Shown here one piece after another: positions 25,993-45,620 of a DNA stretch of 47,053 bases. A model generated the notes under the pieces. That model was not told the DNA's origin. It did no database searches and saw only the letters and a list, made by a program, of their open reading frames with translations. The DNA comes from a virus. The stretch lies in IMG/VR virus record IMGVR_UViG_3300032005_000008, positions 1 to 47,053 of that record; one strand, written 5' to 3'. How positions within the stretch are numbered: position 1 is the first letter of the stretch; the number at the start of each line of letters is the position of its first letter. The translations under genes were made by a program, and so were the position numbers.

Positions 25993-26177
25993 CCGCAGAA
26001 ATCCATGACATCGCCGACCAGCGTCCGCATCTGACGGTAACGGCTGAAGACGGTGTCCACGTACTGCCGTGTGACCTGGTGCGCTCAGTGATCGCGGGCG
26101 ACAAGCCGTCCGCCACCCTGACCGAGCCGGTTCTGCGCCGAATCATTGAAGAATGGTTCCAGAGGGTAACGGCATGA
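25989..26177 (+). CDS. hypothetical protein
   Basis: ATGA coupling. Confidence 0.5.
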   Translation: MTAEIHDIADQRPHLTVTAEDGVHVLPCDLVRSVIAGDKPSATLTEPVLRRIIEEWFQRVTA

Positions 26178-26425: not shown

Positions 26426-26434
26426 GGAATTCCT

Positions 26435-27052: not shown

Positions 27053-27053
27053 C

Positions 27054-28541: not shown

Positions 28542-28548
28542 GGCTCAT

Positions 28549-30009: not shown

Positions 30010-31045
30010 CGAAGGCTATCTGACGGACGCCACCACCAGGCACCAGGTCTATGTCCAGCGTTATGCAGGCGGAAGCCTGAAGCGGGTGGCGGTCTTCATC
30101 AGCAAGGCCATCAAGGCGGCAAAGAATCGCGTATCGGCAGGGCTGAGCGATTACGGCACCAGACGCTACACCTCGCAGATAGAAACGCTCCAGGGCGATT
30201 TGCGGGGCATCTATGATGACATGAAGGGCAGGGCGCAGCTGGATCTTGGCGAGTTCGCGGTCTATGAGGCTGAGTTCAACGGCAAGATGCTGGGTAAGGT
30301 CATCAAGGCCGTTGTTCAGTTCAACGTGCCATCGGCTGAGATGGTGAGCGCGGCGGCACTGGCTGACCCGATGTTGCTGGAGGCTCGCAAGGGTGTGCAG
30401 CGGATCAGTATCAGCGGTGCGCTGGACCAGTTCGGCACGAAGAAGGCGGCCGAGATCATCGGCGAGATTCAAATCGGCTCCAGCTTGGGTGAGACCAGCC
30501 AACAGATCGGCCGGCGACTCACCAGCATCCACCAGTTGCATCAGGATCAGGCCTCGTCGCTCGTCCGCACCATGACCAACCATGTCGCCAGCACGGCGCG
30601 CATGGAAACGCTCAAGGCCAACGACGACATCCTGCAGGGCTGGCGCTGGATCTCCACGCTCGACAGCAAGACCAGCGCCATGTGTCAGGCGAGGGACCAG
30701 CACATCTACGGATGGGACGACCCCAAGCCGCCCGGCCACTGGAATTGCCGATCGAGCGCGCTGCCGGTGCTGAAAGATCAGTTTGCCCGAGAGATTCCCG
30801 GATCTACCCGGCCCTCAATCGGCCCTGACGGCGTCACGCTGGTGTCCAGCAAGACGAGCTATCAGGAGTGGCTTTCGCGCCAGCCCGCTGCCTTCCAGCG
30901 AGAAATCCTCGGCCCGAACCGCTACGCGCTCTTCACCAAGGGCGAGCTGACGCTGGAGAAGTTCGTGGATGACAACGGCAAGACGCTGACCCTTCAACAA
31001 CTGAAAGACCTTGAGCCGCTGGCATTCGAGCGAGCAGGGCTCTGA
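30002..31045 (+). CDS. head morphogenesis / minor capsid protein (SPP1 gp7 / Mu F family)
   Basis: The motif WRWISTLDSKTSAMCQARDQHIY...PPGHWNCRS is present. Confidence 0.85.
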   Translation: MSSEGYLTDATTRHQVYVQRYAGGSLKRVAVFISKAIKAAKNRVSAGLSDYGTRRYTSQIETLQGDLRGIYDDMKGRAQLDLGEFAVYEAEFNGKMLGKVIKAVVQFNVPSAEMVSAAALADPMLLEARKGVQRISISGALDQFGTKKAAEIIGEIQIGSSLGETSQQIGRRLTSIHQLHQDQASSLVRTMTNHVASTARMETLKANDDILQGWRWISTLDSKTSAMCQARDQHIYGWDDPKPPGHWNCRSSALPVLKDQFAREIPGSTRPSIGPDGVTLVSSKTSYQEWLSRQPAAFQREILGPNRYALFTKGELTLEKFVDDNGKTLTLQQLKDLEPLAFERAGL

Positions 31046-31063
31046 CAACGAACCACACAAACG

Positions 31064-31087
31064 ACCGGCCTTGAGCCGGTTTTTTTA
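31064..31087 (+). terminator. intrinsic terminator
   Basis: ACCGGC-cttga-GCCGGT followed by T7. Confidence 0.75.
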
Positions 31088-31128
31088 TGCCTGAGGCTGA
31101 GCCAACGGCAAATCATCCGGGGGATGAC

Positions 31129-31824
31129 ATGAAGTATCTGATCGACAAGGCAGCATTCGACGCACTCGAACCATCCCTGCAAGCCTTCTACAAGGCGCAG
31201 GGCGATAACTACGTCCTGGCAGTTGAAGGGCTGCCCACTGGTGGCGAGGATCTGGAAGGCCTGAAGCGCCAGAACCAGACGCTGCTGGATGAGGCGAAGG
31301 AAGCCAAGCGCCTGAAGCGTGAGGCGGACGAGAAGCTCGAGCGCGAAAAGCTCGACGCCGCCAAGGCGAAAGGCGACTTCGAGCAGCTGTACGCAAGCAG
31401 CGAGCAAGCCCTTGCGGCTGAGCGCACGCGCCTGGCTGAGCTGACCGCCAGCATCGAACGTCGAGACCTGACGGCGGCAGCGTCGAAGGTATCCACCAGC
31501 ATCGCCGACGGCGAGAACGCTGAGATCCTGGCTGAGTTCGTCCAGCGCCGCCTGAAGATCGTAGAAGGCCAAGTCAAGGTCACGGACGCCTCCGGAAACC
31601 TGACCATCGCAACACTCGATGACCTGGCAAAAGAATTCCAGCAAGCGCCGCGCTACGCAGCATTGGTGCGCGGCACGCAAGCGAACGGCGGCGGGGCTGC
31701 CGGGGGTAAGGGTGGCGGGGCCACCAAAACGTGGGACCAAATGACCGGTATGGAGCGTGTTGAGCTTCGCCGAACCAACCCCGCCGAGCACGCGCGCATG
31801 AAAGCCGCTGCTGAGGCCAAGTAA
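31129..31824 (+). CDS. scaffolding protein
   Basis: ATG 31129 follows GGGGGA. It has a coiled coil rich in charged residues, a Gly-rich tract, and a position upstream of the capsid gene. Confidence 0.75.
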   Translation: MKYLIDKAAFDALEPSLQAFYKAQGDNYVLAVEGLPTGGEDLEGLKRQNQTLLDEAKEAKRLKREADEKLEREKLDAAKAKGDFEQLYASSEQALAAERTRLAELTASIERRDLTAAASKVSTSIADGENAEILAEFVQRRLKIVEGQVKVTDASGNLTIATLDDLAKEFQQAPRYAALVRGTQANGGGAAGGKGGGATKTWDQMTGMERVELRRTNPAEHARMKAAAEAK

Positions 31825-31838
31825 AAGGAACTGCCGCA

Positions 31839-32855
31839 ATGCCAACCATTCTCTCGGACGTCGTGTTCCGCGACGAACTGCGCGACTACATCACCGTCAA
31901 CAGCGTGGAGCGCACCGCGTTCTTCGAGTCGGGCATCCTGACCAACAACTCGGACATGTCCACGCTGCTGGCCAGCCCGTCCAACACCTTCACCATTCCG
32001 TGGTGGGTTGACCTGGACGCGTCCATCGAGTCCAACTACTCGAACGACGTCTACACCGACATCGCGGTACCGCTGTCGGTCACCAGCTCCAGCATGCAGG
32101 CGCGCGCTGCGTACCTCAACGAAGGCTGGAACTGCATGAACCTGGTGAAGAACATCACCAAACAGGATCCCCTGGAGTTCGTTGCGGGCCGACTGCTCAG
32201 CTACTGGCGCCGTGTGGCCCAGCGCCGCGCCATCGCTACCGTCGTGGGCATCTACAACGACAACGTCGCATCCAATGGCGGCGACATGGTGGTGGACGCC
32301 GGCGGCCAGATCACTGCCGCAGCAATCATCCGCGCCAAAGCGACCATGGGCGACTACTCCGGCCAGCTGGGCGGCCTGAGCGTGATCGCAATGCACTCGG
32401 CCGTGCAGACCGAGTTGCAGATCCTCAACCTGATCGATTTCACCCCGATTGCCGACCAGACGCCTGAATTCGGTCGCTTCCAGGGTATGCGCGTTGTGGT
32501 GGATGACGGCATGCCGGTCATCACCGGTACGCCGAACAAGTACCTGTCGGTGATCTTCGGCCCGGGCGCCCTTGGCTTCGCCGAGGAAACCCCGCCTGGC
32601 GAAGACGGCCTGGAATACGAGCGTGCCCCAGATCGCGGCAACGGTGGTGGTGCGGAAACCCTGTGGAACCGTCGCAACTTCGTGATGCACCCACTGGGCT
32701 ACTCATTCCTGAGCGCGACCATCACCGGCACGCCGACCACCACCCGGCCGATCTCGGCCAACTGGGCTGACCTGGCGCTGGCAACCAACTGGGAGCGCAA
32801 GTTCGCTCGCAAGCAGGTGCCACTGGCGTTCATCACTTCCACCGTTGGCGCCTAA
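31839..32855 (+). CDS. major capsid protein
   Basis: 338 aa, called from its position after the scaffold and its composition. Confidence 0.85.
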   Translation: MPTILSDVVFRDELRDYITVNSVERTAFFESGILTNNSDMSTLLASPSNTFTIPWWVDLDASIESNYSNDVYTDIAVPLSVTSSSMQARAAYLNEGWNCMNLVKNITKQDPLEFVAGRLLSYWRRVAQRRAIATVVGIYNDNVASNGGDMVVDAGGQITAAAIIRAKATMGDYSGQLGGLSVIAMHSAVQTELQILNLIDFTPIADQTPEFGRFQGMRVVVDDGMPVITGTPNKYLSVIFGPGALGFAEETPPGEDGLEYERAPDRGNGGGAETLWNRRNFVMHPLGYSFLSATITGTPTTTRPISANWADLALATNWERKFARKQVPLAFITSTVGA

Positions 32856-32903
32856 GCGCTTTCCGGCCTCTTCGGGGGCCGGAATCCTTGAAGGAGAAGA
32901 ATC

Positions 32904-33113
32904 ATGACAGTCGCAAAAGACAAGCACATTGATCCGAACGTGAAAGCCCGCTGGGGGTTCGGTGGTACGGAGGGGGCCATCACTGTTGGGCCTGAGACCG
33001 TTGGCGAGACTGGTGGCGTTGACTCCGCCAGGACCGAGCCGGACGAAAAGGCAGCACGCAACAATGGCGGCGGCGAAAACACCGAAGCCGCGAAAGCGGG
33101 CAAGACCAAGTAA
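32904..33113 (+). CDS. small Gly-rich head-associated protein
   Basis: GGAGAAG RBS, 69 aa. Confidence 0.5.
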   Translation: MTVAKDKHIDPNVKARWGFGGTEGAITVGPETVGETGGVDSARTEPDEKAARNNGGGENTEAAKAGKTK

Positions 33114-33152
33114 CACCGGGGCCTCGGCCCCACTCATTCGAACGGAGGCCAG

Positions 33153-33545
33153 ATGGCAACCTACATCACTGTGGCGGACGTAGACGCCATCCTCGGATCC
33201 AGCTGGACCACCGAGGACAAGAAGGCGCGCGCAGTATTGCAGGCCAACGCCTATCTGACCTCGCTCAACCTGGTAGGCATCGACATGGATGCCATCCCTG
33301 GCGACGTGAAGCAGGCCGGCGCCGAGCTGGCGGCTGTAGCTGCTGAAGGGAAGTTGTACCAGCAACACACCGAGGGATCGCTGGAGGCCAAGACGGTCAA
33401 AGCCGGATCGGTAACGACCAGCAAGACTTTCGCCTCGATCGACTCGAGCAAAACCACTTCGTTGCCCGACGGCGTTCAGTTCGCCCTGAGCCTGTTGCAG
33501 CCGTGGCGCAGCAATACATTCTCGTTCCGCGTCGACAGGGGTTGA
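33153..33545 (+). CDS. head-tail connector/adaptor protein
   Basis: Called from position and its N-terminus MATYITVADVDAILG, typical of gp6-like adaptors. Confidence 0.65.
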   Translation: MATYITVADVDAILGSSWTTEDKKARAVLQANAYLTSLNLVGIDMDAIPGDVKQAGAELAAVAAEGKLYQQHTEGSLEAKTVKAGSVTTSKTFASIDSSKTTSLPDGVQFALSLLQPWRSNTFSFRVDRG

Positions 33546-33548
33546 GCC

Positions 33549-33908
33549 ATGGGCCTGCGTGAAGAGATCCAGGCCGACCTGGCCGAGGCCTTCGACACTG
33601 ACTTGGCAGACGCTGTGCAGCCATTCAGCGGCGGCGTGACGCTGCCAGGAACGTGGGATCCGGTCAGTGAGGTGGCTGGTCCGCCCGTCGTGATTGCCTA
33701 CACCGGCCGCGGCGTGTTCGACGCCTTCAAAATCGCCCAGGTCGACGGCGTGAACATTCGCGCAACTGACCAGCTGCTGATCGCGCTGACCAACGAAACG
33801 ATCGGGGGAGTTCCGGACATCGGCCACAAGATCAACGATTTCGACGTGGTCAACGTCCAGGTTGACCCGGCCGGCGCGCACTACGAGATCCAGCTGAGGA
33901 AAGTCTGA
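33549..33908 (+). CDS. head closure / head-tail joining protein
   Basis: Called from its position in the connector module. Confidence 0.55.
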   Translation: MGLREEIQADLAEAFDTDLADAVQPFSGGVTLPGTWDPVSEVAGPPVVIAYTGRGVFDAFKIAQVDGVNIRATDQLLIALTNETIGGVPDIGHKINDFDVVNVQVDPAGAHYEIQLRKV

Positions 33909-34483
33909 TGACCACCAAAGCGGGCTGGAGCCATAGCCTCACGGAATTTGCAGACCAGGCTGGCGAGGACATCACCCAGATGGCGCGCGTCATCGCGACC
34001 GCCATGCTCACGGAAGTGGTGAACCGCTCCCCGGTCGGAAACCCAGACCTGTGGCAGGCCAACGTTGCGCTGCGCACGAAGAACGTGGCGCTGGCTGATG
34101 CCTATGACGCGAACGTCGACGCCCGCAACGCGGCGCGCACCGGTGGCAGGGCATTCAAGAAGCTGACCAAGCGCGAGCGCGAAGAGAACTACTTCGTAAA
34201 AGCGCAGGCAGCGGGGAAGGGCTACATCGGCGGCACGTTCCGAGGCAGTCACCTGGTATCGATCGGCGCGCCCGACATGACCGTGACCGACAACATCGAC
34301 CCGTCCGGCCGCGAAACGATCAGCAAGGGCAGTATGCTCATCAAGGCGTCAGGCCAGTTCCCCGTCATCTACATCCAAACGAACAGCCCCTACGGCGAGA
34401 TGCTGGAGCTGGGGCATTCCACGCAGGCGCCCGGCGGGGTTTATGACCTCGCGTTCATCGGCGTATCCGAGGCCTACAAATGA
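33908..34483 (+). CDS. tail completion protein (HK97 gp10-like)
   Basis: Called from position and the C-terminal pattern SPYGEMLELGHS. Confidence 0.6.
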   Translation: MTTKAGWSHSLTEFADQAGEDITQMARVIATAMLTEVVNRSPVGNPDLWQANVALRTKNVALADAYDANVDARNAARTGGRAFKKLTKREREENYFVKAQAAGKGYIGGTFRGSHLVSIGAPDMTVTDNIDPSGRETISKGSMLIKASGQFPVIYIQTNSPYGEMLELGHSTQAPGGVYDLAFIGVSEAYK

Positions 34484-34875
34484 CCTTCGAGCAGATCAGA
34501 GCGCTCATCACCGGCCGCATGGTCGCTTTCGCTGGCATTGACCAGGCGCGGATCGATTACCCCAACCAACCTACTGTGTTCACCCCACCGGAAACCGGTC
34601 TCTGGTGCCGCCTGAATATCCAGTACGCCTCGGCCTTCATGGCCGGCATGGCCGACCGTCCCCACACCCGCAAGCCCGGTCAGATCAGCATCCAGTGCTT
34701 CGCCCGCGAGCGCACCGGCACCAAAGCCGTCACCGAACTTGCCGACGCGCTTGAGGCGCACTTCGCCTACTGGATGTCCGGCGACCTTGAGTGCATGGAA
34801 GCCAGCCAAGTGGTCGCCGGCGAGTTCGAGGGCTTCTACCAAATCAACGTCAACATCCGGTTTCGCGCCGGCTGA
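34480..34875 (+). CDS. tail terminator protein (DUF4128-like)
   Basis: Called from position and the N-terminal pattern FEQIRALI. Confidence 0.6.
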   Translation: MTFEQIRALITGRMVAFAGIDQARIDYPNQPTVFTPPETGLWCRLNIQYASAFMAGMADRPHTRKPGQISIQCFARERTGTKAVTELADALEAHFAYWMSGDLECMEASQVVAGEFEGFYQINVNIRFRAG

Positions 34876-34894
34876 CAGCAAAGCAACCGCCACG

Positions 34895-34915
34895 CCCGCG
34901 CCTGCGGGTTTTTTA
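34895..34915 (+). terminator. intrinsic terminator
   Basis: CCCGC-gcct-GCGGG followed by T6. Confidence 0.6.
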
Positions 34916-34937
34916 TGCCCGCGAATAGGAGGCTCCA

Positions 34938-36098
34938 ATGAGCTCTGGCGCAAAAGTTGTAAGCCACATCATCGCCGAGGTTACGCCCGGCGTTACCCCG
35001 GCCGGCACATGGGACACGCTGCGCCTCACTGGCAACGCGCTGACCCCGACCGTCAACACCCAAGTCAGTGACGAGATCACCGACACCCGCCTGAGCCAGG
35101 GTTCTGTGGCCACCAGCATCGATATCGGCGGCGACCTGACGGCGGAGTTCTCGTTTGGCTCGTTCGACCAGCTGCTGGAGGCCGCATTTTACGGCAACTG
35201 GTCAGGCAACGTGCTGAGTGTCGGCGATACCCGGCACACCTTCAGCATCGCCAAGGGTTACGACGATGTCGGCGTCTATGGCGTGTTCAAGGGGGCTCAC
35301 GTCTCCACCTTCGCGCTGGACATCCCGTCCGACGGCAAGATTACCGCCACTTTCAACATGGCCTGCCTGGACTACGAGGACAGCGAGACGCCGATCGTTG
35401 TTTCGCCGAACGCGCCAACCACTTCACCATTCCTGTCGAACAACAACGTCGGCACGATCCTGGTGAACGGGCAATCACTGGAAGGTGTGGCCTGCGTCTC
35501 TGCCATGACGGTGAATCTGGACAACAGCTTGCAGACTCAGCGCTGCCTCGGTTCCGATAGCCTGGGCCCTGGTGCGCATATCGCCACCGAGGCGGCAATC
35601 ACCGGAAGCATCACGCTGGCCTGGTCCAAGCGTGCATGGGAAATCTGGAAGAACACCTTCACCCGTGCGCCGATCGCGGTGGTGTTCCCGATCACCGACT
35701 CCCTGGGCAACCGGTACACCTTTACTTTCCCTGCGGTGGAGGTGGACGGCGAACTGCCGAACGGCGGCAAGCGCGACCTGATCGAGGTAACGCTGAACTA
35801 CACCGTCGCCAAGGTCAGCCCCACCATCACCCGCGTCCCATTCGTGCCGGTGGTTAGCGTTGCCGTGGCTCCGACAACTGCATCGATCGAGGTGGCAGCA
35901 ACTCAGCAACTCACCGCGTCAGCTCTGCCGGCCGAAGCCGCGCAGAACGTCACCTGGTCGAGTTCGGCGCCGAGTGTGGCAACCGTCAGCTCGTCTGGCC
36001 TGGTCACCGGTGTGTCTGTCGGATCGGCGACCATCACGGCTACCAGCGTCTCGGACGTCACCAAGACCAGCACCTCCGCAATCACCGTCACCGCGTAA
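34938..36098 (+). CDS. major tail protein with C-terminal Big_2 Ig-like domain
   Basis: AGGAGG RBS. The C-terminus VTWSSSAPSVATVSSSGLVTGVSVGSATITATS matches the Big_2 pattern. Confidence 0.85.
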   Translation: MSSGAKVVSHIIAEVTPGVTPAGTWDTLRLTGNALTPTVNTQVSDEITDTRLSQGSVATSIDIGGDLTAEFSFGSFDQLLEAAFYGNWSGNVLSVGDTRHTFSIAKGYDDVGVYGVFKGAHVSTFALDIPSDGKITATFNMACLDYEDSETPIVVSPNAPTTSPFLSNNNVGTILVNGQSLEGVACVSAMTVNLDNSLQTQRCLGSDSLGPGAHIATEAAITGSITLAWSKRAWEIWKNTFTRAPIAVVFPITDSLGNRYTFTFPAVEVDGELPNGGKRDLIEVTLNYTVAKVSPTITRVPFVPVVSVAVAPTTASIEVAATQQLTASALPAEAAQNVTWSSSAPSVATVSSSGLVTGVSVGSATITATSVSDVTKTSTSAITVTA

Positions 36099-36112
36099 CC
36101 GCGTCACCTTGG

Positions 36113-36152
36113 CCGCCCCGGCATTCACGCCGGCCGGGGCGGTCCTTTTATT
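36113..36152 (+). terminator. intrinsic terminator
   Basis: CCGCCCCGG, a loop, then CCGGGGCGG, followed by TCCTTTTATT. Confidence 0.6.
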
Positions 36153-36174
36153 GGCGAGGCGTTGAGGAATTACC

Positions 36175-36660
36175 ATGGCTCTGCAAATGGGCAAAAAGAA
36201 GACTGCGGTCACCGGCGAGCGCTGGGCGAAGTTCGACGAAGACACCAAGGTTCTGCTGGCTGGCATCGACAACCCTGAATACCAGGTCGCCCTTGAGCGC
36301 ATGCGGCGCCGTATCCAGCGCAACGACGCGCGCTTCGAGGAGGGCCAGGTCGGCGTGGTCGCCGGCGAGAAGACCGAGCACCAGAACCACTCGATGCTGC
36401 TCAGCCACTTCATTGTGAAGGATTGGGAGGGCGTCCTGGATGCCGAGGGAAACCCGGTCAAATACAGCCCAGCGGTTGCCGCTGAGTTGCTGGAGAACAA
36501 CATCGAGTTCTTCATCTTCGTCCTGCGCGAAGGCGCGGCAGCCGCCAATGATGCCGCCGAAGAGCGAGCCGAGTCGGTGGGAAAGCCGTCGCCCGCTTCG
36601 AATGGGAGCAAGAGTGGGGCGGGGAAAGTGAAAAGCGCCGCGCGGTCTACGCGCGCCTGA
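36175..36660 (+). CDS. tail assembly chaperone (lambda G analogue)
   Basis: It lies between the major tail and tape measure genes and has an acidic C-terminal half. Confidence 0.75.
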   Translation: MALQMGKKKTAVTGERWAKFDEDTKVLLAGIDNPEYQVALERMRRRIQRNDARFEEGQVGVVAGEKTEHQNHSMLLSHFIVKDWEGVLDAEGNPVKYSPAVAAELLENNIEFFIFVLREGAAAANDAAEERAESVGKPSPASNGSKSGAGKVKSAARSTRA

Positions 36661-36662
36661 GG

Positions 36663-36902
36663 TTGAGCGTTCCGGACGAACCGGAGAACGATCCGCTCAC
36701 TGCGTACCTGCTCAACCTCTATCGCAACGTCTGCCGCGGCCGCCGGTACATCGCCGGCATGGCCGGGGCCTTCCCATTACCTCTGTCAGGGCGGGATATC
36801 TCCGACTGGCTGGAGGCGCATCCATCGCCATTGCCGCGCGACGAGGTTGACGAGGTGATGTTTACGCTGGATGCGCTGTGCTTGGCTTTGGATGAGGCAT
36901 AG
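36663..36902 (+). CDS. tail assembly chaperone -1 frame extension (lambda T analogue; probably made as a G-T fusion)
   Basis: The ORF is in the -1 frame relative to G, and that frame is open from at least 36600. GGGGAAAG lies at 36621-36628. Confidence 0.6.
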   Translation: MSVPDEPENDPLTAYLLNLYRNVCRGRRYIAGMAGAFPLPLSGRDISDWLEAHPSPLPRDEVDEVMFTLDALCLALDEA

Positions 36903-36903
36903 A

Positions 36904-37290
36904 ATGAATGCTCATAGCCATGGAGCGCGAAGCATGCAAAGAAACTGGGATCTGATCAGGATGATCTTGCTGGACCTGGAACAGGCCGATGGACAGCATA
37001 TAAAAGCAAAGGAAATGCCTCCGTTTCCAGCTGATTGGGTTGCCCTTCACATGAAGATGATGGAGGAAGGTGGCCTGATTGAAGGGAATGACCCTGGGTT
37101 TTTGAGTGGCCCTCCGCAATTCTTCGCGCTTGGATTGACGTGGAAGGGGCGCGAGCTCCTCGACAGCATCAGAACCGATTCGGTGTGGGGAAAGACGAAA
37201 GGGCTGCTCAAGGAAAAAGGGGTTGGCCTGACTCTTGATACCATAAAAGCGGCAGTTACTGCCGTGGTGACCCAGCTGATGAAATCCTGA
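36904..37290 (+). CDS. DUF2513-like protein (winged-helix-like)
   Basis: MQRNWDLIRMILLDLEQ matches the DUF2513 N-terminal pattern. Alternative start at 36934. AT-richer than its flanks. Confidence 0.65.
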   Translation: MNAHSHGARSMQRNWDLIRMILLDLEQADGQHIKAKEMPPFPADWVALHMKMMEEGGLIEGNDPGFLSGPPQFFALGLTWKGRELLDSIRTDSVWGKTKGLLKEKGVGLTLDTIKAAVTAVVTQLMKS

Positions 37291-37348
37291 TTTTGTGGCT
37301 GCAATGTGGATGGTGGTAGATTGATGCCACTTTCAGGGAGGGTGGGAT

Positions 37349-37789
37349 TTGAGACGATTATTGCTGATTGGTTTTGGCTGCATTGCTATAGCAGGATGCG
37401 AGACGACCAGGGTTTCGCCGGAACAGGCCCGTCCGGTGTCTTCGGAGGACGTGTATGCATTCAGTCGACCCTCTAGCCCCAGCGACGCCAGGATCGTGTT
37501 CACCCAGGATTCTGGTGCCTTGAGCTGCTTTGGTGCGGGCATGCAGATCTTCCTTGATGAAAAATTGGCTGCCGAGACTAGCAACGGAGAATCGGTGAAG
37601 CTCTATCACAAGCCGGGCCCAACGCAGCTGAGCATCAAAAACAAGGCCGGATGTGCTGGTGGTGATTTGCGCGGCCTGTTGCTGGATCTGAAGCCAGGCT
37701 ACTCATATTCCGTTCGTGGATACCGCGGCGCATGGGATAAAGCAGAGCCATTGCTGACATCGCCCGAGCCATTCCAATACAGGAAGTGA
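37349..37789 (+). CDS. lipoprotein
   Basis: The TTG start follows GGAGG at 8 nt. The signal peptide and lipobox read LLLIGFGCIAIAGC. Confidence 0.65.
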   Translation: MRRLLLIGFGCIAIAGCETTRVSPEQARPVSSEDVYAFSRPSSPSDARIVFTQDSGALSCFGAGMQIFLDEKLAAETSNGESVKLYHKPGPTQLSIKNKAGCAGGDLRGLLLDLKPGYSYSVRGYRGAWDKAEPLLTSPEPFQYRK

Positions 37790-37790
37790 A

Positions 37791-38090
37791 ATGAAGCCGA
37801 CCTTCGCGATTCTTCTCGCCGTCCTTTCCTTTTGCTCAGCGGAGGCATTTGCCGCCGGGGATTCCTGCAAGAAAATCTCGGCGCTGGCTGGGCAGGCCAT
37901 GACGGCGCGCCAGAACGGTCAGCTGCTTGAGGATTCGCTCGACAAGATCGGCGACGGCAGCAAATTCGCCCAGGGAGTGATCCTGAAGGCCTACGACCAG
38001 CCACTGATGCCGAACAAACACGCCAAGGAAGAGGCAGTGAAAGAATTCCAAAACTCCGCATTTCGCGAATGTCTCGACGCAAATAGCTGA
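37791..38090 (+). CDS. secreted small protein
   Basis: AGGAAG RBS. The signal peptide is MKPTFAILLAVLSFCSAEAFA. Confidence 0.65.
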   Translation: MKPTFAILLAVLSFCSAEAFAAGDSCKKISALAGQAMTARQNGQLLEDSLDKIGDGSKFAQGVILKAYDQPLMPNKHAKEEAVKEFQNSAFRECLDANS

Positions 38091-38108
38091 CAGAAGTTAG
38101 ACCAAACG

Positions 38109-38130
38109 ACCCGCTCCGGCGGGTTTTTTT
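38109..38130 (+). terminator. intrinsic terminator
   Basis: ACCCGC-tccg-GCGGGT followed by T7. Confidence 0.8.
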
Positions 38131-38147
38131 ACGCCTGGAGAAAAACA

Positions 38148-41063
38148 ATGGCTCAGACATCCCGCCTGGTTCTTGAAATTGACAGTCGGGACGCCGAGCA
38201 AAAAGCGGCCGACACCCGCAAGGCACTTGAGGCACTGGAGGGTGCAGGCCTCCGCGCCAAGCCTGTGCTGGATAAGCTGGCTGACGGCATCGACAGTGTC
38301 GGTGAGTCCTCAGAGTCCACTGGCAAAAAAGTCAAAACTCAGAAAGAACAGCTGGAAGAGCTGCTGGGCAGCATTGACCCTGTAACCCGAAAGCTTGGCG
38401 AACTTGATAAGCAAGAAAAGGAGCTGGCGAAAAATCGCAAGCTCGGCCTGATTGATGCGGACACCTTCGCTGAATACCAATCGAAGATAAACACCACTCG
38501 TACGGATCTCGGTCGATTCAATACCGACCTCAACAAAGCAGGGATGACGGCTAAGGCTACTTCCGCCGCTCTTCGCGGTGTACCCGCTCAATTCACCGAT
38601 ATCGCCGTATCCCTGCAAGGGGGCCAGGCGCCTTTGACCGTGTTCTTGCAGCAGGGCGGGCAGCTGAAGGATATGTTCGGCGGGGTCGGGCCGGCTGCCA
38701 AGGCGCTGGGTGGCTACGTTCTCGGCCTGGTGAATCCTTTTACAGTGGCCGCCGCGGCAGTGGGCGCGCTAACGCTGGCTTATTACCAAGGATCAAAGGA
38801 GCAAGACGCGTATCGACTGGCGATCGTTACCACGGGGAACGCCGCGGGAACGTCAACCATTGCGTTGGCAGAGATGGCGAAGCGCATAAGTTCAACGGTG
38901 GGCACTACTGCGGAGGCGGCTACCGCCCTGGCACAGCTGGCTGCGACCGGGAAAATCACCAGTTCCAGCTTCGAGCAGATCGCTACCTCGGCAATCGCCT
39001 TTGAGAAGTCGACCGGGAAAGCCGTGTCTGAAACGATCGCGGAATTCGTCAGATTGGCAGACGACCCAGTGAAGGCCGTAGCCGACCTGAACGATAAATA
39101 CAACTTCCTTACCGCGTCTGTTTATGAGCAGGTTCGAGCCGCCCAGGAGATGGGTGAGAAGGAAGCGGCGGCAGCTATTGCCCAGGAAGCCTATGCCAAA
39201 GCACTAGGCGAGCGAGCCGCTACTATGAAGGCGAATCTCGGTACGCTTGAGCGCGCCTGGAGCGATCTAGCCGGCGCAGCCAAGGAGGGTTGGGATGCAA
39301 TTCTCGGCGTCGGGCGTGAGTCCAGGGACGGCCCGGACGTTAAGGCAATCCAACAAAAAATCAATTATTTGAAGTCAACGCTGGACACTGGCTACGAGGA
39401 CGATAACGCGCGGGAGCGAATCGCATCGCTTCAGGCCGAACTGGACGCCTACACCAAAAAAGCGAAAGCCGAACAGGATGCAGCCGATGCGGCGGCGCGG
39501 AATGCCCAGGTCCAGCGCGATGGTCAGGTTGCGTACGAATCGTTCCAAAAGAGCATCGAGGATAACTTCACAAAACGCCAGAAGATGAACAAGGCGTTGG
39601 AGGACGAAGAGAAACGCATTAGTGCTGCGCGAGCGGCAGGCTATACGATTACTGCCGAGCAGGAGAAGGCAGCGCTCAAGGCAATCCGCGAAAATTCAAT
39701 CTACAAGGAGGCAGCCGAGAAAAAGCCCAAGGCATACCGGGAAGACGCCGGCATGAAGGCGCTCGACCAGGCCCGCCAGCAATACTCGGTGCTGCAGCAG
39801 CAGAACGCCCTGATCGGCGTGCAGAAGGGCGAAGTAGACAAACTTGGCACGGCCGGGCAGGCCCTGGTGAAGTGGGAGCAGGAACTCGCCGATATCAAGG
39901 GAAAGCAGACCCTGACTGCGGACCAGAAGGCGCTTATCGCCAACCAGGAACTGATCACTGCCCAACTGAAAAAAAATGCGGCGCTTGAGAGAGAAAACCA
40001 GCTCAAGAAAATCTCCAGCGATGAAACACAGAAGCTCGCGGCTTTCCAGACCAACCTGGCGAGCCAACTGGCGAAGGCACAGACCGGCCTGGACAACAAT
40101 CTCGCCGGGATGGGGATGGGCGATCAGCAGCGGCAGCGCCTACAGGAGCAGCTGAGCATTCAGCAGCAGTATCAAACGCAATTGGATGCGCTGGAGCAGC
40201 AGCACAACGAAGGGCGCATCAGCGACAGCCTCTACAACAAGGAGACTGAGTCGCTTCGAACCGCTCTGCAAAGCCGCCTGACGATGCAGCAGCAGTACTA
40301 CACCGACGTGGACAAGGCCCAATCTGACTGGTCGCTCGGTGCCTCATCGGCGTTCCAGACTTATTCGGAGCAGGCCGCCAACGTGGCAGGGCAGACCCGG
40401 GAGCTATTCACCCGAGCCTTCACCAACATGGAAGACGCTGTCGTCAAGTTCGTCCGGACGGGGAAACTGTCCTTCAAGGACTTCGCCAATGGCGTGATCG
40501 AGGATCTGATCCGCATCCAGGTTCGGCAAGCTGCTGCTGGATTCCTTAGCTCTGCATTCGGGATGCTCACCGGCGGCGGTGCGGCAGCAGGCAATGGCCT
40601 GGCCGCCGGATCTGCTGGCGCTACGTCTTCGAGTCTCGGTGCGTCCTCCGCTGGATATGGCTCGAAGTTCGGCTTCTCCGACGGCGGCTACACCGGCGAC
40701 GGCGGCAAGTACGAGCCGAAGGGCGTGGTGCATGGTGGCGAGTTCGTGGTTCGCAAGGAGGCGGTGAGCCAGCCGGGCGTGCGTGAGTTCCTCGAGCGAA
40801 TGAACGCCAACGCGAAAGGGTATGCGGACGGCGGCTATGTGGGGTCCACGCCAGCGGCCACTTCAAACGTGGTTCCGATCTCGTCCGCGCCGGGTGCTGG
40901 GCCGGTGATCCAGCAGACCTTCAGCTTCCAAGGCACTCCGGACGACGCCACCATCAACATGGTCAGGGAAGCAGCCATGCAAGGGGCGAAGGGCGGCTAC
41001 GAGCTGGTCGTTCGCGACCTGAAAATGAACGGAACAATCCGCCAGCTGATCGCGCGGCGCTAA
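38148..41063 (+). CDS. tail tape measure protein
   Basis: 971 aa with long coiled coils, a hydrophobic Gly/Ala segment, and a C-terminal GGYTGDGGKYEPKGVVHGGEFV motif. Confidence 0.95.
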   Translation: MAQTSRLVLEIDSRDAEQKAADTRKALEALEGAGLRAKPVLDKLADGIDSVGESSESTGKKVKTQKEQLEELLGSIDPVTRKLGELDKQEKELAKNRKLGLIDADTFAEYQSKINTTRTDLGRFNTDLNKAGMTAKATSAALRGVPAQFTDIAVSLQGGQAPLTVFLQQGGQLKDMFGGVGPAAKALGGYVLGLVNPFTVAAAAVGALTLAYYQGSKEQDAYRLAIVTTGNAAGTSTIALAEMAKRISSTVGTTAEAATALAQLAATGKITSSSFEQIATSAIAFEKSTGKAVSETIAEFVRLADDPVKAVADLNDKYNFLTASVYEQVRAAQEMGEKEAAAAIAQEAYAKALGERAATMKANLGTLERAWSDLAGAAKEGWDAILGVGRESRDGPDVKAIQQKINYLKSTLDTGYEDDNARERIASLQAELDAYTKKAKAEQDAADAAARNAQVQRDGQVAYESFQKSIEDNFTKRQKMNKALEDEEKRISAARAAGYTITAEQEKAALKAIRENSIYKEAAEKKPKAYREDAGMKALDQARQQYSVLQQQNALIGVQKGEVDKLGTAGQALVKWEQELADIKGKQTLTADQKALIANQELITAQLKKNAALERENQLKKISSDETQKLAAFQTNLASQLAKAQTGLDNNLAGMGMGDQQRQRLQEQLSIQQQYQTQLDALEQQHNEGRISDSLYNKETESLRTALQSRLTMQQQYYTDVDKAQSDWSLGASSAFQTYSEQAANVAGQTRELFTRAFTNMEDAVVKFVRTGKLSFKDFANGVIEDLIRIQVRQAAAGFLSSAFGMLTGGGAAAGNGLAAGSAGATSSSLGASSAGYGSKFGFSDGGYTGDGGKYEPKGVVHGGEFVVRKEAVSQPGVREFLERMNANAKGYADGGYVGSTPAATSNVVPISSAPGAGPVIQQTFSFQGTPDDATINMVREAAMQGAKGGYELVVRDLKMNGTIRQLIARR

Positions 41064-42669: not shown

Positions 42670-45620
42670 GCAGCGGCATCAAGAAACTTGCTCAGGTCGT
42701 AGTGGGTGCCGTCATTGGCTTTGCGCAAGGCGGCCCGTGGGGAGCGGTAGCAGGCGCCGCGCTGGCCTTCTATGCCGCAGAGCAACAGGAGAAGCTCAAC
42801 ACCAAGTCTCCTCTGCGCGATAACGAGCCTTCGGCGCAGACCGTCCGGTCGTCCAAAGCGCCGGTTAGGTTCATCCTGGGCCGGGTATCGACGGGCGGCG
42901 TCCTGGTGTGGGCTCAGGAGCAAACAGGCGCGCTGAATAATGGTGAATGGCTGCACCTAGTCTATGTCCTGTCCGAAGGCTCAATAAGCGCGTTGGAGAC
43001 CATCTACCTCGGCGAAGAGGATATTGGTACGTTCGGAGAGTTCGCCAGTTATGAACTGGTCGTAAACCCGACCCAGGTGAACGCGTTCCTCAAAGCGAAC
43101 TGCCCGGACTGGAAGGACAGCCAGATCGGCAGAGGGCTTTCCTATGTCCGCGTGTCCCTGAAATACAGCGCGGAGAAATTCCCGGCAGGCATTCCGGACA
43201 CTCGGTTCGTCGTGCGTGGACGGAACGACATTTTCGACCCGCGGACCAACGCCGCCGGGTACAGCGCCAATACCGCGCTTCACCTGCTTTGGTTCCTCCG
43301 CAACCGCTGCAATGTTCCTGACGACGAGATCGTCTTCGAGACCTTCGCCAGTGCTGCGAACGTGTGTGACGAAGCTGTCACCAACGCCGATGGATCGACC
43401 AGTCAGCGCTACAGAACCGGCTGCGTGATCGGCGCCGACGAACAGCGCACCGGAGTCCTGCAGAAGCTCGAAGCAGCTTCCGGCGGTCACCTGATCCGTG
43501 TGGGCGGTCGCTGGATGTTCCAGGCGGGCGCGTATTACGGTCCGTATGACTTCGAAATCACCGAAGATATGGTCATCGGCACCGTCACCGGCAGCACCGA
43601 GCCTACCAACGACTCGGCAATCAATACCGTTCGTGGCACGTTCATTGACCCGGATCAGTCATGGACGGAGACGGACTATCCTGAGGTCAGCGTTGCTGAG
43701 TGGATCGTTGAAGACGGAGGCGAGGCGGCGGAAACGCTGACCTACTCCTATGTCACCGACCCATACCAGGCGCAACGCCTGGCGAACATGGAGCTCCGCC
43801 GTCGCCGTGCTGGCGGCGCAATTAGCATCCCGATGAACTTCGCCGGCTACAACTGCCGGCCTGGCCGCGTGGTACGCGTCAACCTGCCTTCGCTAAATAT
43901 CCTGGGAGAGTTCATCGTTTCGGATTGGTCTATGGGCGACCGGGAAGGCTGCACCGTCCAGGTCAAACAGTACGAGGCTGCGATCTTCGATGACGCCGTG
44001 GGCCAGCCCTACAACCCGATCGGCTTTATCAATCTACCGTCCGGCGGGCTGGGCAGTCCAAGTTCGCTCACCTGGACGCAGGATTCCACGGCCGAGGTAA
44101 TTCAAGGTGTCCTCTCCTGGATGCCGCCCACCGGGATCGTTAAGGAATACATCGTCGTGGTCCGTCAAGGAACGACCGCGATTCAATCGCACAACGTGCC
44201 GTCAACTTCCACAGAGTGCGCTATCAACAGCCTGCCGTCCGGCAATTACACCATGAGCGTGTCGGCTGTTGGCCCTATGGCGCGGTCTGGCGAAGTAACC
44301 ATCACGGTCAGCATCAACGGCCCGCCCATTCCGGAAAGCTGCGTGGTTCAGTCGTCGATCGACAACATCGTGCTGATTCCGGCCAATGCTCAAAATGGGC
44401 TGAACGGCGGCACTTACGAGTACTTCTTCAGCACCTCTCCGACCGCGACGTCGGCGGACGCTGAGTACTTGGGCCAAGGGCTCTCGTTTACCCACACCGG
44501 CCTGGGGTTCTGGACGAATTACTACTACTTCATCCGGTCCTCCAACGCCTACGGGAAAAGCTCGTTCCTCTACGTTCCAGCCCAGACCTCGAACGATGTT
44601 TCTGCTTATCTGGCTGCGCTGGCCGGACAAATCGGTCGCACTGAGCTCGGGCAGGACATCATCGACGAAATCGACAAGATCCCAGGCCTTCAGGACCAGA
44701 TCGATGACCTGTCGAACCCGATGCTTTACGAGCCGACGATTGCATATCTAAGTGGCGCCGTCGTGTATCAAGGGGATCGCCTGTACCGCGCGAAGCAGGA
44801 CGTTCCTGCCGAGCCAGGCGGAGCAAACGCCCCTCCGAACGCGACCTACTGGGAGGACATCGGCCAGATCCTGCAAGAGGCGAACGCGCTTGCCGCACAA
44901 GTCTCCGAAAACACGCTGAAGATTGACCAGCAGGGCGACGAGCTCACCGTGCAGGCATCCAAGCTTGACGGAGTCTATGTCCAAGTGAACCCGGCCCTGG
45001 CCGGCGACACAGAGGGCTTCGCTGGTTCAGATGATGTCTACATCGGTGTTTGGTCGGAACAGTCCGCTCGCCTTGAGGATGGCATTGCCACCGCCCGGCG
45101 CGTCGACACCGTGCAGGCCGAGGTCAACGAAAACACCGCGACTGTTCAAACGGTCAGCGAGGCGATGGTTGATCTGGACGGCAAGGCTTCGGCGATGTGG
45201 TCGGTCAAGATGCAGCTAACAGCCGACGGCAAGTACGTCGCGGCCGGTATCGGGCTTGGCATCGAGAACACCGCAGCGGGCCTGCAAAGCCAGTTCCTGG
45301 TTAGCGCCGACCGGTTCGCCATCGTCAACACCATTGCCGGCGGCGCAATCTCGGTTCCGTTCGCGGTGCAAGGCGGCCAGGTGTTCATGAACTCGGCTTT
45401 CATCCAAGACGGCAGCATCACGATGCTGAAGATCGGACAGTACCTGCAATCCGACAACTATGTTGCTGGTTCGCAGGGCTGGCGCCTGGATAAGGCCGGA
45501 AATCTTGAGTTCAACGGGCCAGCCCCTGGTGGTGGTCGCCTGACGATGACCAATCGCGCCGTCAAGGTCTACGACCAGAACAACGTGAAGCGCGTTCAAC
45601 TTGGGGATCTCGACGCATGA
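42666..45620 (+). CDS. host specificity / central tail fibre protein (lambda J analogue)
   Basis: 984 aa, called from position, an FN3-like segment and a conserved C-terminal region. Confidence 0.85.
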   Translation: MSSGIKKLAQVVVGAVIGFAQGGPWGAVAGAALAFYAAEQQEKLNTKSPLRDNEPSAQTVRSSKAPVRFILGRVSTGGVLVWAQEQTGALNNGEWLHLVYVLSEGSISALETIYLGEEDIGTFGEFASYELVVNPTQVNAFLKANCPDWKDSQIGRGLSYVRVSLKYSAEKFPAGIPDTRFVVRGRNDIFDPRTNAAGYSANTALHLLWFLRNRCNVPDDEIVFETFASAANVCDEAVTNADGSTSQRYRTGCVIGADEQRTGVLQKLEAASGGHLIRVGGRWMFQAGAYYGPYDFEITEDMVIGTVTGSTEPTNDSAINTVRGTFIDPDQSWTETDYPEVSVAEWIVEDGGEAAETLTYSYVTDPYQAQRLANMELRRRRAGGAISIPMNFAGYNCRPGRVVRVNLPSLNILGEFIVSDWSMGDREGCTVQVKQYEAAIFDDAVGQPYNPIGFINLPSGGLGSPSSLTWTQDSTAEVIQGVLSWMPPTGIVKEYIVVVRQGTTAIQSHNVPSTSTECAINSLPSGNYTMSVSAVGPMARSGEVTITVSINGPPIPESCVVQSSIDNIVLIPANAQNGLNGGTYEYFFSTSPTATSADAEYLGQGLSFTHTGLGFWTNYYYFIRSSNAYGKSSFLYVPAQTSNDVSAYLAALAGQIGRTELGQDIIDEIDKIPGLQDQIDDLSNPMLYEPTIAYLSGAVVYQGDRLYRAKQDVPAEPGGANAPPNATYWEDIGQILQEANALAAQVSENTLKIDQQGDELTVQASKLDGVYVQVNPALAGDTEGFAGSDDVYIGVWSEQSARLEDGIATARRVDTVQAEVNENTATVQTVSEAMVDLDGKASAMWSVKMQLTADGKYVAAGIGLGIENTAAGLQSQFLVSADRFAIVNTIAGGAISVPFAVQGGQVFMNSAFIQDGSITMLKIGQYLQSDNYVAGSQGWRLDKAGNLEFNGPAPGGGRLTMTNRAVKVYDQNNVKRVQLGDLDA

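What the first reader, a model, noticed from the sequence alone, without database searches (positions are those of the whole stretch)
36904..38130. Three-gene AT-rich cargo island (DUF2513-like, lipoprotein, secreted protein) inserted between the tail chaperones and the tape measure
In lambda-like tails the G/T chaperone gene is followed directly by the tape measure. Here there are 1.2 kb of lower-GC DNA; I count about 48% over 37001-37100. The island carries a DUF2513-like winged-helix protein, a 146-aa lipoprotein (TTG start, lipobox IAIAGC) and a 99-aa signal-peptide protein. It ends with a strong terminator at 38109-38130. Envelope-targeted proteins encoded inside tail or receptor modules, such as T5 Llp and phi80/N15 Cor, block the phage's own receptor. 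This trio may be an exclusion or defence cassette with its own regulator.
Basis: partly seen in the sequence, partly recalled or inferred. Interest (0 to 1): 0.65.

Follow-up and report, generated by a model that had tools for sequence, protein, structure and literature searches.

The report
Moron cassette before the tape measure gene
Three small accessory genes sit between the tail chaperone genes and the tape measure gene of a temperate Pseudomonas phage, in the same swappable slot as the classic HK97 "moron", and probably change the lysogen's cell envelope, though what they do is untested.

Summary
Between the G/T-type tail chaperones (36175-36902) and the tape measure gene (38148) lie 1.2 kb of lower-GC DNA (54% against 62%). 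It carries a DUF2513 gene (A, 36934-37290), a TTG-started lipoprotein gene (B, 37349-37789), a signal-peptide gene (C, 37791-38090) and an intrinsic terminator (38108-38132).

In 46 related Pseudomonas phage loci this slot ranges from 36 bp (empty) to 5 kb and holds more than 50 cargo families. It has two constant features. One is a promoter-like element, TGnTAGATT plus a Shine-Dalgarno site, present in 41 of 46 slots and absent from 486 kb of flanks. The other is a hairpin-plus-T-run terminator just before the tape measure gene, absent only from the empty slot.

This is the anatomy of the original HK97 gene 15 moron, at the same position. A, B and C are not an obligate trio. A lies outside the promoter-terminator unit and is absent from most B-C loci. 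B and C each occur alone and in other phage modules. Neither resembles Llp, Cor or gp15. Superinfection exclusion is plausible: the commonest cargo in sister slots has the T4 Imm domain. It is untested.

Verdict: a new member of a known kind.

The parts
36175..36660 (+). Tail assembly chaperone, G-like (left flank, conserved backbone)
   Evidence: phrog_313 'tail assembly chaperone' 6.4e-38. It is 85-93% identical in 43 IMG/VR relatives.
36579..36585 (+). Slippery heptamer G GGA AAG for a -1 frameshift giving a G-T fusion
   Evidence: It is in the X XXY YYZ register of TAC1, and the -1 frame is open from here to the TAC2 stop at 36902. HK97 gp13/14 is annotated the same way.
36663..36902 (+). 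T-like part of the chaperone (TAC2); left boundary of the variable slot
   Evidence: phrog_1189 2.8e-26 and a weak Phage_TAC_18 match. It is 79-87% identical in relatives, whatever cargo follows.
36900..36905 (+). TAGAAT, a -10-like hexamer that overlaps the TAC2 stop codon; possible weak promoter for A (speculative)
   Evidence: It is conserved in all four loci that start with A and in the two that start with C. Other loci end TAC2 with TGA followed by TTTTGTCGAGG. There is no good -35, and it was not reported by the promoter scan.
36934..37290 (+). Gene A: DUF2513 protein, 118 aa, cytoplasmic, probably winged-helix; an independent cargo module
   Evidence: Pfam DUF2513 3.9e-21 and phrog_585. 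The only PDB profile hits are weak ones to wHTH regulators (E 0.08-0.9). It is present in 4 of 46 related slots and in other modules of other phages.
37293..37322 (+). Promoter-like element: TTGTGG, 18 nt, then TGG TAGATT (extended -10)
   Evidence: TGnTAGATT occurs once, on the + strand, in 41 of 46 slots. It occurs 0 times in 485.6 kb of flanking DNA. It lies 20-27 nt before a cargo start codon. It occurs once in the whole window, where 0.13 is expected. It also precedes B in four Pseudomonas genomes and in a second phage lineage.
37336..37342 (+). Shine-Dalgarno site GGGAGGG for B
   Evidence: Read from the sequence. GGGAG(G) is conserved after the element in relatives.
37349..37789 (+). 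Gene B: lipoprotein precursor, 146 aa, TTG start, lipobox IAGC (Cys17); mature beta-sandwich with conserved Cys60 and Cys102
   Evidence: phrog_890. 42 homologue clusters, all from Pseudomonas, with the invariant residues listed. AF2 model has pLDDT 79 and is an all-beta sandwich. Remote relatives match DUF2846.
37791..38090 (+). Gene C: secreted 99-aa precursor (signal peptide 1-21, AFA|AG); mature four-helix protein with conserved Cys26 and Cys94
   Evidence: phrog_2315 5e-21. Alignment. AF2 model has pLDDT 78 and four helices. Its start lies 1 nt after the B stop.
38108..38132 (+). Intrinsic terminator (stem GACCCGC/GCGGGT, loop TCCG, T7); right end of the cassette
   Evidence: Found by the terminator scan. 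A hairpin plus T5-8 lies at the same place in all 42 filled slots and the window. There are 30 distinct hairpin sequences, including wholly different stems. It is absent from the empty slot L050.
38148..41063 (+). Tape measure protein (right flank)
   Evidence: Pfam TMP_2 2e-77, Tape_meas_lam_C 2e-29, and phrog_24.

Best explanation
The island is a composite moron: accessory DNA in a recombination-prone cargo slot between the frameshifted G/T tail chaperone gene and the tape measure gene of a temperate lambdoid Pseudomonas siphophage.

The core unit runs from 37293 to 38132. It consists of an extended -10 sigma-70-type promoter (TGGTAGATT), a short leader with a strong SD, the closely spaced genes B and C, and an intrinsic terminator 15 nt before the tape measure ribosome-binding site.

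In a lysogen this unit would be transcribed on its own, and the terminator would keep transcription out of the tail genes. During lytic growth the antiterminated late transcript reads through it.

B is lipidated at Cys17 and anchored in the envelope, by default the outer membrane. C is cleaved after Ala21 and released into the periplasm. My preferred reading is that there they mask or alter an envelope component that incoming phages need. That would be superinfection exclusion at adsorption or DNA entry.

Gene A (DUF2513) is a separate cargo module upstream of that promoter, not the cassette's dedicated regulator.

Shown: the anatomy, the cargo status, the conservation, and purifying selection on the genes.
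Inferred: promoter activity, expression in the lysogen, cellular localisation, and the exclusion function.

Confidence is about 0.9 that this is a moron-type accessory cassette. It is about 0.4 that the function is phage exclusion. The figure given is a blend of the two.
For: (1) Presence and absence. 46 related slots range from 36 bp (L050, empty) to 5 kb. All have low GC (49-57% against 58-63% in flanks) and together hold more than 50 cargo clusters. The combinations seen are A+B+C, B+C, C alone, and A with other cargo.

(2) A portable promoter-like element with fixed orientation and fixed distance to cargo start codons. It gives 41 hits inside slots and 0 outside. The exact 18-mer is found in phages whose tube protein is only 36% identical. 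In L084 it sits in a different tail slot, ahead of two lipoproteins.

(3) The terminator has varied stems in every filled slot and is absent from the empty one.

(4) The type moron, HK97 gene 15, has the same order: frameshifted chaperone, moron, terminator, tape measure gene. It is a prophage-expressed exclusion protein.

(5) Cargo theme. The commonest cargo in sister slots carries Pfam Imm_superinfect (7.8e-15) plus SHOCT. Other cargo includes lipoproteins and secreted proteins.

(6) B and C move between modules. B sits between Phage_tail_T and the tape measure gene in a second siphophage lineage, and upstream of a tape measure gene in four Pseudomonas genomes. A B-like lipoprotein lies between tail genes K and I in phiAH14a. 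C homologues lie beside cI-type repressor genes in Bordetella PHB09 and Pseudoalteromonas H105/1.

(7) Purifying selection: dN 0.07-0.29 with saturated dS.

(8) A weak hint from RNA. A rhizosphere metatranscriptome holds an exact 195-nt contig inside B (37589-37783). No other full-length contig lies in the 20 kb laid around it (20001-40000). A contig also lies at the 5' end of the repressor gene.
Against: There is no direct evidence of promoter activity. The strict sigma-70 scan reports no promoter, because the -35 matches only 3 of 6 positions.

The RNA evidence is one metagenomic contig with no strand information. It could come from another phage, and a lysis-region contig is also present.

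No match to any defence model (PADLOC), NCBIfam or solved structure. No similarity to Cor or gp15. Llp and Cor are absent from the fold hits.

The function therefore rests on context only. Morons also encode traits unrelated to phage exclusion, such as lambda bor and lom.

The gene in the Q position (23028-23723) has no annotated function, so read-through by antitermination is argued by analogy.
Confidence: 0.6

Rival explanations
1. The cassette is a lysogenic-conversion cassette unrelated to phage exclusion. B and C alter the envelope for host fitness. Examples would be protection from tailocins or bacteriocins, stress tolerance, or plant or host interaction, as lambda Bor and Lom do.
For: It has the same moron anatomy. 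There is no homology to any known exclusion or defence protein. B belongs to a broad DUF2846-like lipoprotein superfamily with 278 representatives, whose genomic context (phage or chromosomal) was not examined. PMC3594210 lists morons with functions unrelated to phages.
Against: Close B homologues are confined to phage tail modules, directly before a tape measure gene. Sister slots are dominated by Imm_superinfect proteins. C homologues sit in immunity regions.
Confidence: 0.22
2. B and C act during the lytic cycle rather than in lysogeny. They could block the receptor on the infected cell and its debris so that progeny are not wasted (the role proposed for T5 Llp). They could also modulate lysis or DNA entry. 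In this reading they are expressed mainly by read-through of the late operon.
For: The genes lie inside the late operon on the same strand, so they must be transcribed late. Lysogen expression is unproven.
Against: A dedicated promoter-like element and a terminator would not be needed for purely late expression. C homologues beside cI genes point to lysogenic expression. There is also the metatranscriptome hint.
Confidence: 0.1
3. One reading: A, B and C form one three-gene defence unit, in which the DUF2513 protein A regulates B and C.
For: The three are adjacent and on the same strand, and they co-occur in L017 and L033. A is plausibly a winged-helix DNA binder, on weak PadR/ArsR-like hits.
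Against: 8 of the 10 related B-C loci lack A. A occurs with unrelated cargo in L030 and Aurca01. A lies upstream of the element that precedes B and has a different left junction. DUF2513 genes occur alone in other phage modules.
Confidence: 0.07
4. B and C are tail structural or assembly proteins, or a spanin pair.
For: They are located in the tail operon. C has a weak phrog_2975 'Rz-like spanin' hit (E 0.054).
Against: They are absent from most close relatives that have 85-93% identical chaperones, and one relative has an empty slot. Export signals do not fit cytoplasmic tail assembly. The phage has its own endolysin and a strong Rz-like spanin at 1089-2218. B has no C-terminal transmembrane segment, and C has a cleavable signal peptide.
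Confidence: 0.03

Closest known systems
HK97 gene 15 moron (Juhala et al. 2000; Cumby et al. 2012; reviewed in PMC3594210)
   Same: The genomic position and order are identical: -1 frameshifted tail chaperone, inserted gene, intrinsic terminator, then the tape measure gene about 12-15 nt later. It also shares deviant composition, absence from relatives, and an envelope-located product.
   Different: gp15 is a single 62-aa inner-membrane protein of the YebO family. Here there are three unrelated genes: a DUF2513 protein, a 146-aa lipoprotein and a 99-aa secreted protein. There is no sequence similarity. The host is Pseudomonas. The exclusion phenotype is shown for gp15 and not here.
T5 Llp and phi80/N15 Cor receptor-blocking lipoproteins
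   Same: B is a small phage-encoded lipoprotein encoded within a tail gene region.
   Different: There is no sequence similarity to N15 Cor (E 3.4 for B, 0.28 for C). Llp and Cor are not among the structural matches in BFVD or PDB. Cor and Llp lie beside the receptor-binding gene (N15 gene 24 follows genes 21-23). B lies 4.9 kb upstream of the J-like gene.
T4 Imm family (Pfam PF14373, Imm_superinfect)
   Same: Proteins with this domain occupy the same slot, behind the same promoter-like element, in many sister phages.
   Different: None of A, B or C carries the domain. They are alternative cargo, not homologues.
Lambda bor/lom and P. aeruginosa JBD26 Tab (morons in late operons)
   Same: They are independently transcribed accessory genes embedded in late operons and expressed from the prophage.
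   Different: They sit at different positions (Tab lies between the terminase genes), the proteins are unrelated, and Tab is cytoplasmic.
DUF2846-like lipoproteins and DUF2513 proteins (families of unknown function)
   Same: A is a bona fide DUF2513 member. 21 of 74 remote relatives of B match DUF2846.
   Different: B itself does not reach any Pfam threshold. Neither family has a known function.

Membership tests
Moron (Hendrix/Juhala definition) | Extra DNA between genes that are adjacent in related phages | tested here: met
   L050 has a 36-bp junction between TAC2 and the tape measure gene. The other 45 slots hold inserts of 0.4-5 kb with different content.
Moron (Hendrix/Juhala definition) | Nucleotide composition differs from the neighbouring genes | tested here: met
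   54.1% GC against 62.3%, and GC3 of 60-71% against 80%. The same drop is seen in the filled related slots.
Moron (Hendrix/Juhala definition) | Own promoter | tested here: inconclusive
   A conserved TGnTAGATT extended -10-like element occurs in 41 of 46 slots and 0 times in 486 kb of flanks, 20-27 nt before the start codons. The -35 is weak, the strict scan found nothing, and no transcription start has been mapped.
Moron (Hendrix/Juhala definition) | Own terminator | tested here: met
   Hairpin plus T7 at 38108-38132. Equivalent terminators with different stems occur in every filled slot, and none in the empty one.
Moron (Hendrix/Juhala definition) | Expressed from the repressed prophage | tested here: inconclusive
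   One exact 195-nt contig within B in a rhizosphere metatranscriptome, with no neighbouring late genes. Other RNA runs were uninformative.
Cor/Llp receptor-blocking lipoproteins | Lipoprotein signal peptide with lipobox | tested here: met
   IAGC with an invariant G16-C17 in 26 homologues.
Cor/Llp receptor-blocking lipoproteins | Sequence or fold homology to Cor or Llp | tested here: not met
   BLASTP against N15 Cor gives E 3.4 for B and 0.28 for C. Neither Cor nor Llp is among the top PDB or BFVD fold matches. The Llp sequence was not compared directly.
Cor/Llp receptor-blocking lipoproteins | Blocks the phage's own outer-membrane receptor | not testable with these tools
   This needs adsorption and plating assays.
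HK97 gp15 / YebO family | Sequence homology; small single-pass inner-membrane protein | tested here: not met
   gp15 has no hit with E<3 against A, B, C or any slot cargo. B is a lipoprotein and C is secreted.
Pfam DUF2513 (gene A) | Score above the Pfam gathering threshold over the full domain | tested here: met
   75.7 bits against 29.6, covering profile positions 2-99 of 100.
Pfam DUF2846 (gene B) | Score above the Pfam gathering threshold | tested here: inconclusive
   B has no hit. 21 of 74 remote relatives found with the B profile match DUF2846 at E<=0.01, the best at 1.3e-7.
Spanins (Rz/Rz1) | Inner-membrane component with an N-terminal transmembrane anchor plus an outer-membrane lipoprotein, encoded in the lysis cassette | tested here: not met
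   There is only a weak hit (E 0.054). The lysis cassette, with an Rz-like gene (5e-53), lies at 1089-2218. C has a cleavable AxA signal peptide.
Known anti-phage defence systems (PADLOC-DB) | Match to any defence protein model | tested here: not met
   No family at E<=0.1 for A, B or C.

The most novel reading that the evidence does not exclude
B and C could be a previously undescribed two-protein envelope exclusion system: an outer-membrane beta-sandwich lipoprotein plus a periplasmic disulfide-bonded four-helix partner. The chaperone-to-tape-measure slot of Pseudomonas siphophages could work as an integron-like exchange site. Its invariant TGnTAGATTGC element would be both a portable promoter and a recombination anchor, and its cargo would be matched to the adjacent N-terminal tape measure allele, so that exclusion targets the tape-measure-dependent DNA-entry step.
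Probability: 0.15. Interest if true: 0.65.

Novelty: new member of a known kind. Interest (0 to 1): 0.4.

Why it matters
The position and the architecture are textbook moron biology, so the finding is not surprising in itself. Its value is practical. The comparison defines a sharply bounded cargo slot in Pseudomonas siphophages, with a recognisable promoter-like tag and terminator. The slot holds more than 50 mostly uncharacterised families of envelope and regulatory proteins. These include Imm-domain proteins, several lipoproteins and secreted proteins, Bro-N proteins and Arc-type regulators. That gives a compact, testable list of candidate prophage-encoded exclusion or conversion factors for plant- and soil-associated Pseudomonas. 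It also gives a simple sequence tag (TGnTAGATT, then an SD, an ORF, a terminator and the tape measure gene) for finding more of them.

Tried and rejected
Searches that found nothing:
- Megablast of the region against GenBank phages found nothing. Only the chaperone and tape measure flanks match in 'distant' mode.
- PADLOC, NCBIfam and Rfam gave nothing meaningful.
- PDB sequence searches for A and B found nothing.
- Fold searches gave only generic beta-sandwich matches for B. The best were the PepT1 extracellular domain (E 2e-3, TM 0.51) and a DUF4352 protein in BFVD (3.5e-4). Nothing matched C.

Readings of the conserved element that I rejected:
- A sigma-54 reading (TGGTGG-N4-TTGC) fails because the spacing is one base short of the strict TGGCAC-N5-TTGC. 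This is my reading of the sequences, set against the established consensus.
- An RNA-hairpin reading (GGTAG/CTGCC) fails because the variants break the pairing instead of compensating.

Other rejected ideas:
- The spanin reading is rejected.
- A structural role is rejected.

RNA evidence that led nowhere:
- Wastewater 'RNA-Seq' runs cover structural genes too and probably contain DNA, so they are uninformative.
- The synthetic-community metatranscriptomes that share words with L033 match only about 20-nt hairpin-like pieces.

Literature searches for DUF2513 and DUF2846 gave no functional information.

The link between cargo type and the N-terminal half of the tape measure protein may be simple physical linkage. 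B also occurs ahead of tape measure proteins whose N-terminal halves show no detectable similarity to the window's.
Full report
**What is there.** The window is a complete temperate lambdoid siphophage genome of about 47 kb and 59% GC.
- It carries an integrase (2823-3914, minus strand) and a CI-type repressor (16465-17280, minus strand).
- It carries NinB and NinG (21765-23031) and a small terminase subunit (26435-27052).
- The lysis genes, including a strong Rz-like spanin, lie at 1089-2218.
- In the tail operon, the major tail protein (34938-36098) is followed by a G-like chaperone (36175-36660) and a T-like ORF in the -1 frame (36663-36902).
- A canonical slippery heptamer G GGA AAG sits at 36579-36585 and opens that frame.
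- The tape measure gene starts at 38148.

**Check of the observation.**
- Gene A is a DUF2513 protein (Pfam 3.9e-21; phrog_585). Homologues and the Pfam match place its start at ATG 36934 rather than 36904.
- Gene B (37349-37789) uses a TTG start that is conserved in relatives. It has the lipobox IAGC, and Gly16-Cys17 are invariant in 26 homologues.
- Gene C (37791-38090) has a signal peptide ending in an AxA site whose -1 Ala is invariant.
- The terminator is GACCCGC-TCCG-GCGGGT followed by T7, at 38108-38132.
- GC is 54.1% over the island against 62.3% to the left. Only 2.8% of equal-sized windows are as low. GC3 is 60/60/71% against 80% in the neighbouring tail genes.
- All three are real genes. 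Against relatives, dN is 0.07-0.29 while synonymous sites are saturated. The adjacent chaperone gene has dS of only 0.4-0.8, so the cargo alleles are older than the backbone they sit in.

**Comparative genomics.** The chaperone protein retrieved 51 IMG/VR loci, and DNA search added two P. syringae phages. In 46 of these loci both flanks can be placed.
- The distance from the TAC2 stop to the tape measure start ranges from 36 bp (L050, an empty site) to 5.0 kb (L044).
- Every filled slot has lower GC than its flank.
- The slot ORFs fall into more than 50 clusters.
- A+B+C occurs in L017 and L033.
- B+C without A occurs in eight loci.
- C alone occurs in L010 and L026, and a distant homologue occurs alone in phage PSA-2T.
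- A occurs with an unrelated secreted protein in L030, and a distant A occurs with a membrane protein in Aurca01.
- The commonest last gene before the tape measure gene belongs to cluster C0, small membrane proteins found in 22 loci. Many carry Pfam Imm_superinfect (7.8e-15) plus SHOCT, and others carry a zinc ribbon.
- Other cargo includes Bro-N proteins, Arc-type and FtsK-gamma-domain DNA-binding proteins on the opposite strand, further lipoproteins, and secreted proteins.

So this is a cargo slot, and A, B and C are not an obligate trio.

**Constant features of the slot.** The first is a conserved element of about 55 nt. Its consensus is tTTTGGtGCTTCCTGCGGATGGTGGTAGATTGCTGCCA, followed by an SD and a start codon.
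- Its core, TGnTAGATT, occurs once on the plus strand in 41 of 46 slots. That is 41 hits in 70.7 kb.
- It never occurs in the 485.6 kb of flanking DNA in the same loci.
- It always lies 20-27 nt before a cargo start codon.
- In the window it is TTGTGG, 18 nt, then TGG TAGATT (37293-37322). GGGAGGG and the TTG start of B follow.
- It is the only TGNTAGATTG in the 47 kb window, where 0.13 is expected by chance.
- It reads as an extended -10 sigma-70 promoter. The -35 is weak, which is why the strict scan missed it.
- Variants do not preserve a hairpin, and the spacing excludes sigma-54.
- The exact 18-mer recurs in phages whose tube protein is only 36% identical.
- In L084 it lies in another tail slot, after the K-like gene, ahead of two lipoproteins. 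One of these is 28% identical to B.
- It also precedes B in a second phage lineage and in four Pseudomonas genomes, where only TGnTAGATTGCC and the SD are conserved.

The second constant feature is a hairpin plus T5-8 about 15 nt before the tape measure ribosome-binding site.
- It is present in every filled slot, with 30 distinct hairpin sequences including wholly different stems.
- It is absent only from the empty slot.

A promoter-like element, ORFs and a terminator, embedded in a late operon, are the definition of a moron.

[quoted passage not shown] It also states that gp15 is expressed from the prophage and excludes superinfecting phages. The HK97 record shows the same order: frameshifted gp13/14, Gp15 'moron product', a putative terminator, then the tape measure gene 12 nt later. 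The insertion is a known phenomenon at exactly this site.

**The proteins.**
- B. It has 42 close homologue clusters, all from Pseudomonas and none with a Pfam domain. Among 185,579 species genomes only four carry it. All four are Pseudomonas, and in all four B lies just upstream of a tape measure gene. B also lies between Phage_tail_T and a TMP_3-type tape measure gene in a different siphophage lineage, without C. A profile search finds 278 remote relatives, all small lipoproteins, and 21 of 74 scanned match DUF2846, a family of unknown function. The AF2 model (pLDDT 79) is a beta-sandwich. It has only generic matches, and neither Llp nor Cor is among them.
- C. The model is a four-helix protein (pLDDT 78) with no structural match. 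Homologues at 31-35% identity lie next to cI-type repressor genes in Bordetella phage PHB09 and Pseudoalteromonas phage H105/1. Others lie among the early genes of Stenotrophomonas phage C121.
- A. Its homologues lie just upstream of the tape measure gene in Pasteurella phage Pmp14, and in the early regions of Lactococcus and Burkholderia phages. A profile of A gives only weak hits to winged-helix regulators.
- None of A, B or C matches PADLOC or NCBIfam. Neither N15 Cor nor HK97 gp15 resembles any cargo protein of the slot.

**Mechanism.** The best-supported model has these steps.
- B and C form a transcription unit driven by the extended -10 element and closed by the terminator.
- In a lysogen the unit is expressed alone. 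During lytic growth the late transcript reads through it. Read-through is inferred by analogy with lambdoid Q antitermination, because the ORF in the Q position (23028-23723) has no annotation.
- B is lipidated and anchored in the envelope.
- C is released into the periplasm, probably with a Cys26-Cys94 disulfide.

Three lines favour superinfection exclusion: the sister cargo is dominated by Imm-domain proteins, C homologues sit in immunity regions, and HK97 provides the precedent. This is inference from context only.

Direct expression evidence is thin. One rhizosphere metatranscriptome contains an exact 195-nt contig within B and no other full-length contig across the 20 kb laid around it (20001-40000). 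It also has a contig at the 5' end of the repressor gene. Contigs carry no strand, the sample is a community, and a lysis-region contig is also present.

The N-terminal half of the tape measure protein co-varies with cargo type. This could reflect functional matching or mere linkage. The occurrence of B ahead of unrelated tape measure N-termini argues for linkage.

**Verdict.** The region is a composite moron in a hypervariable cargo slot. It is a new member of a known kind, with uncharacterised envelope proteins whose exclusion role is plausible but unproven. The reusable result is the definition of the slot and its sequence tags.

Noticed in passing
window 36579-36585 (with 36175-36902): A lambda-type slippery heptamer G GGA AAG lies in the correct register near the end of the G-like chaperone gene. 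The -1 frame stays open through the T-like ORF, which predicts a G-T fusion.
   Followed up: yes
L001-L053 slots; L084:5785; L061:~4960; L091-L094:~3960: The TGnTAGATTGC promoter-like element is conserved almost to the base across phages whose structural proteins have diverged to about 35% identity. It also occurs in a second tail slot (K-I). Why the spacer and the bases after the -10 (GCTGCCA) are so invariant is unexplained. They could be a regulator site or a recombination anchor.
   Followed up: partly
window 38148-39600 and the tape measure genes of L003-L053: The N-terminal half of the tape measure protein comes in distinct alleles that co-vary with cargo type. Secreted or lipoprotein cargo goes with the window-type allele, and Imm or zinc-ribbon membrane cargo goes with another. 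The C-terminal half is mosaic.
   Followed up: partly
window 45617-46629: Two genes follow the J-like tail tip gene (117 aa, phrog_4047; 220 aa, phrog_3370). The second is weakly related to phrog_425 'membrane associated protein, moron'. They occupy the position of N15 genes 22 and 23, which precede cor. The lowest-GC stretch of the window (51%) starts at 45576.
   Followed up: no
window 1-500, 1900-2300, 16800-17300, 23150-23700: These are further stretches with GC at or below 55%, which may mark other acquired genes. One overlaps the repressor gene. Another overlaps the unannotated 231-aa ORF in the Q position (23028-23723, phrog_3412).
   Followed up: no
window 35835-36098 (major tail protein residues 300-386): The C-terminal Big_2 Ig-like domain of the major tail protein is present in only some relatives. 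Many loci match residues 1-299 only.
   Followed up: no
L097:2089-2150 (HK97) against window 38091-38150: The HK97 terminator after gene 15 (GACCCGCTATCAAGCGGGTTTTTTTT, then the RBS and ATGGCT) closely resembles the Pseudomonas slot terminator and tape measure start (GACCCGCTCCGGCGGGTTTTTTT ... ATGGCT). This could be chance or a shared junction.
   Followed up: no
L060:2775-4223 (Pasteurella phage Pmp14): A DUF2513 gene 40% identical to A lies just upstream of the tape measure gene in an unrelated Pasteurella phage. This suggests that DUF2513 genes recur as cargo at this junction across genera.
   Followed up: partly
whole window: The window appears to be a circularly permuted complete phage contig: the lysis genes are at the start and the integrase follows. 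The exact C protein is recorded on a contig of 47,067 nt. DNA runs holding the region are rhizosphere, food and wastewater metagenomes.
   Followed up: no
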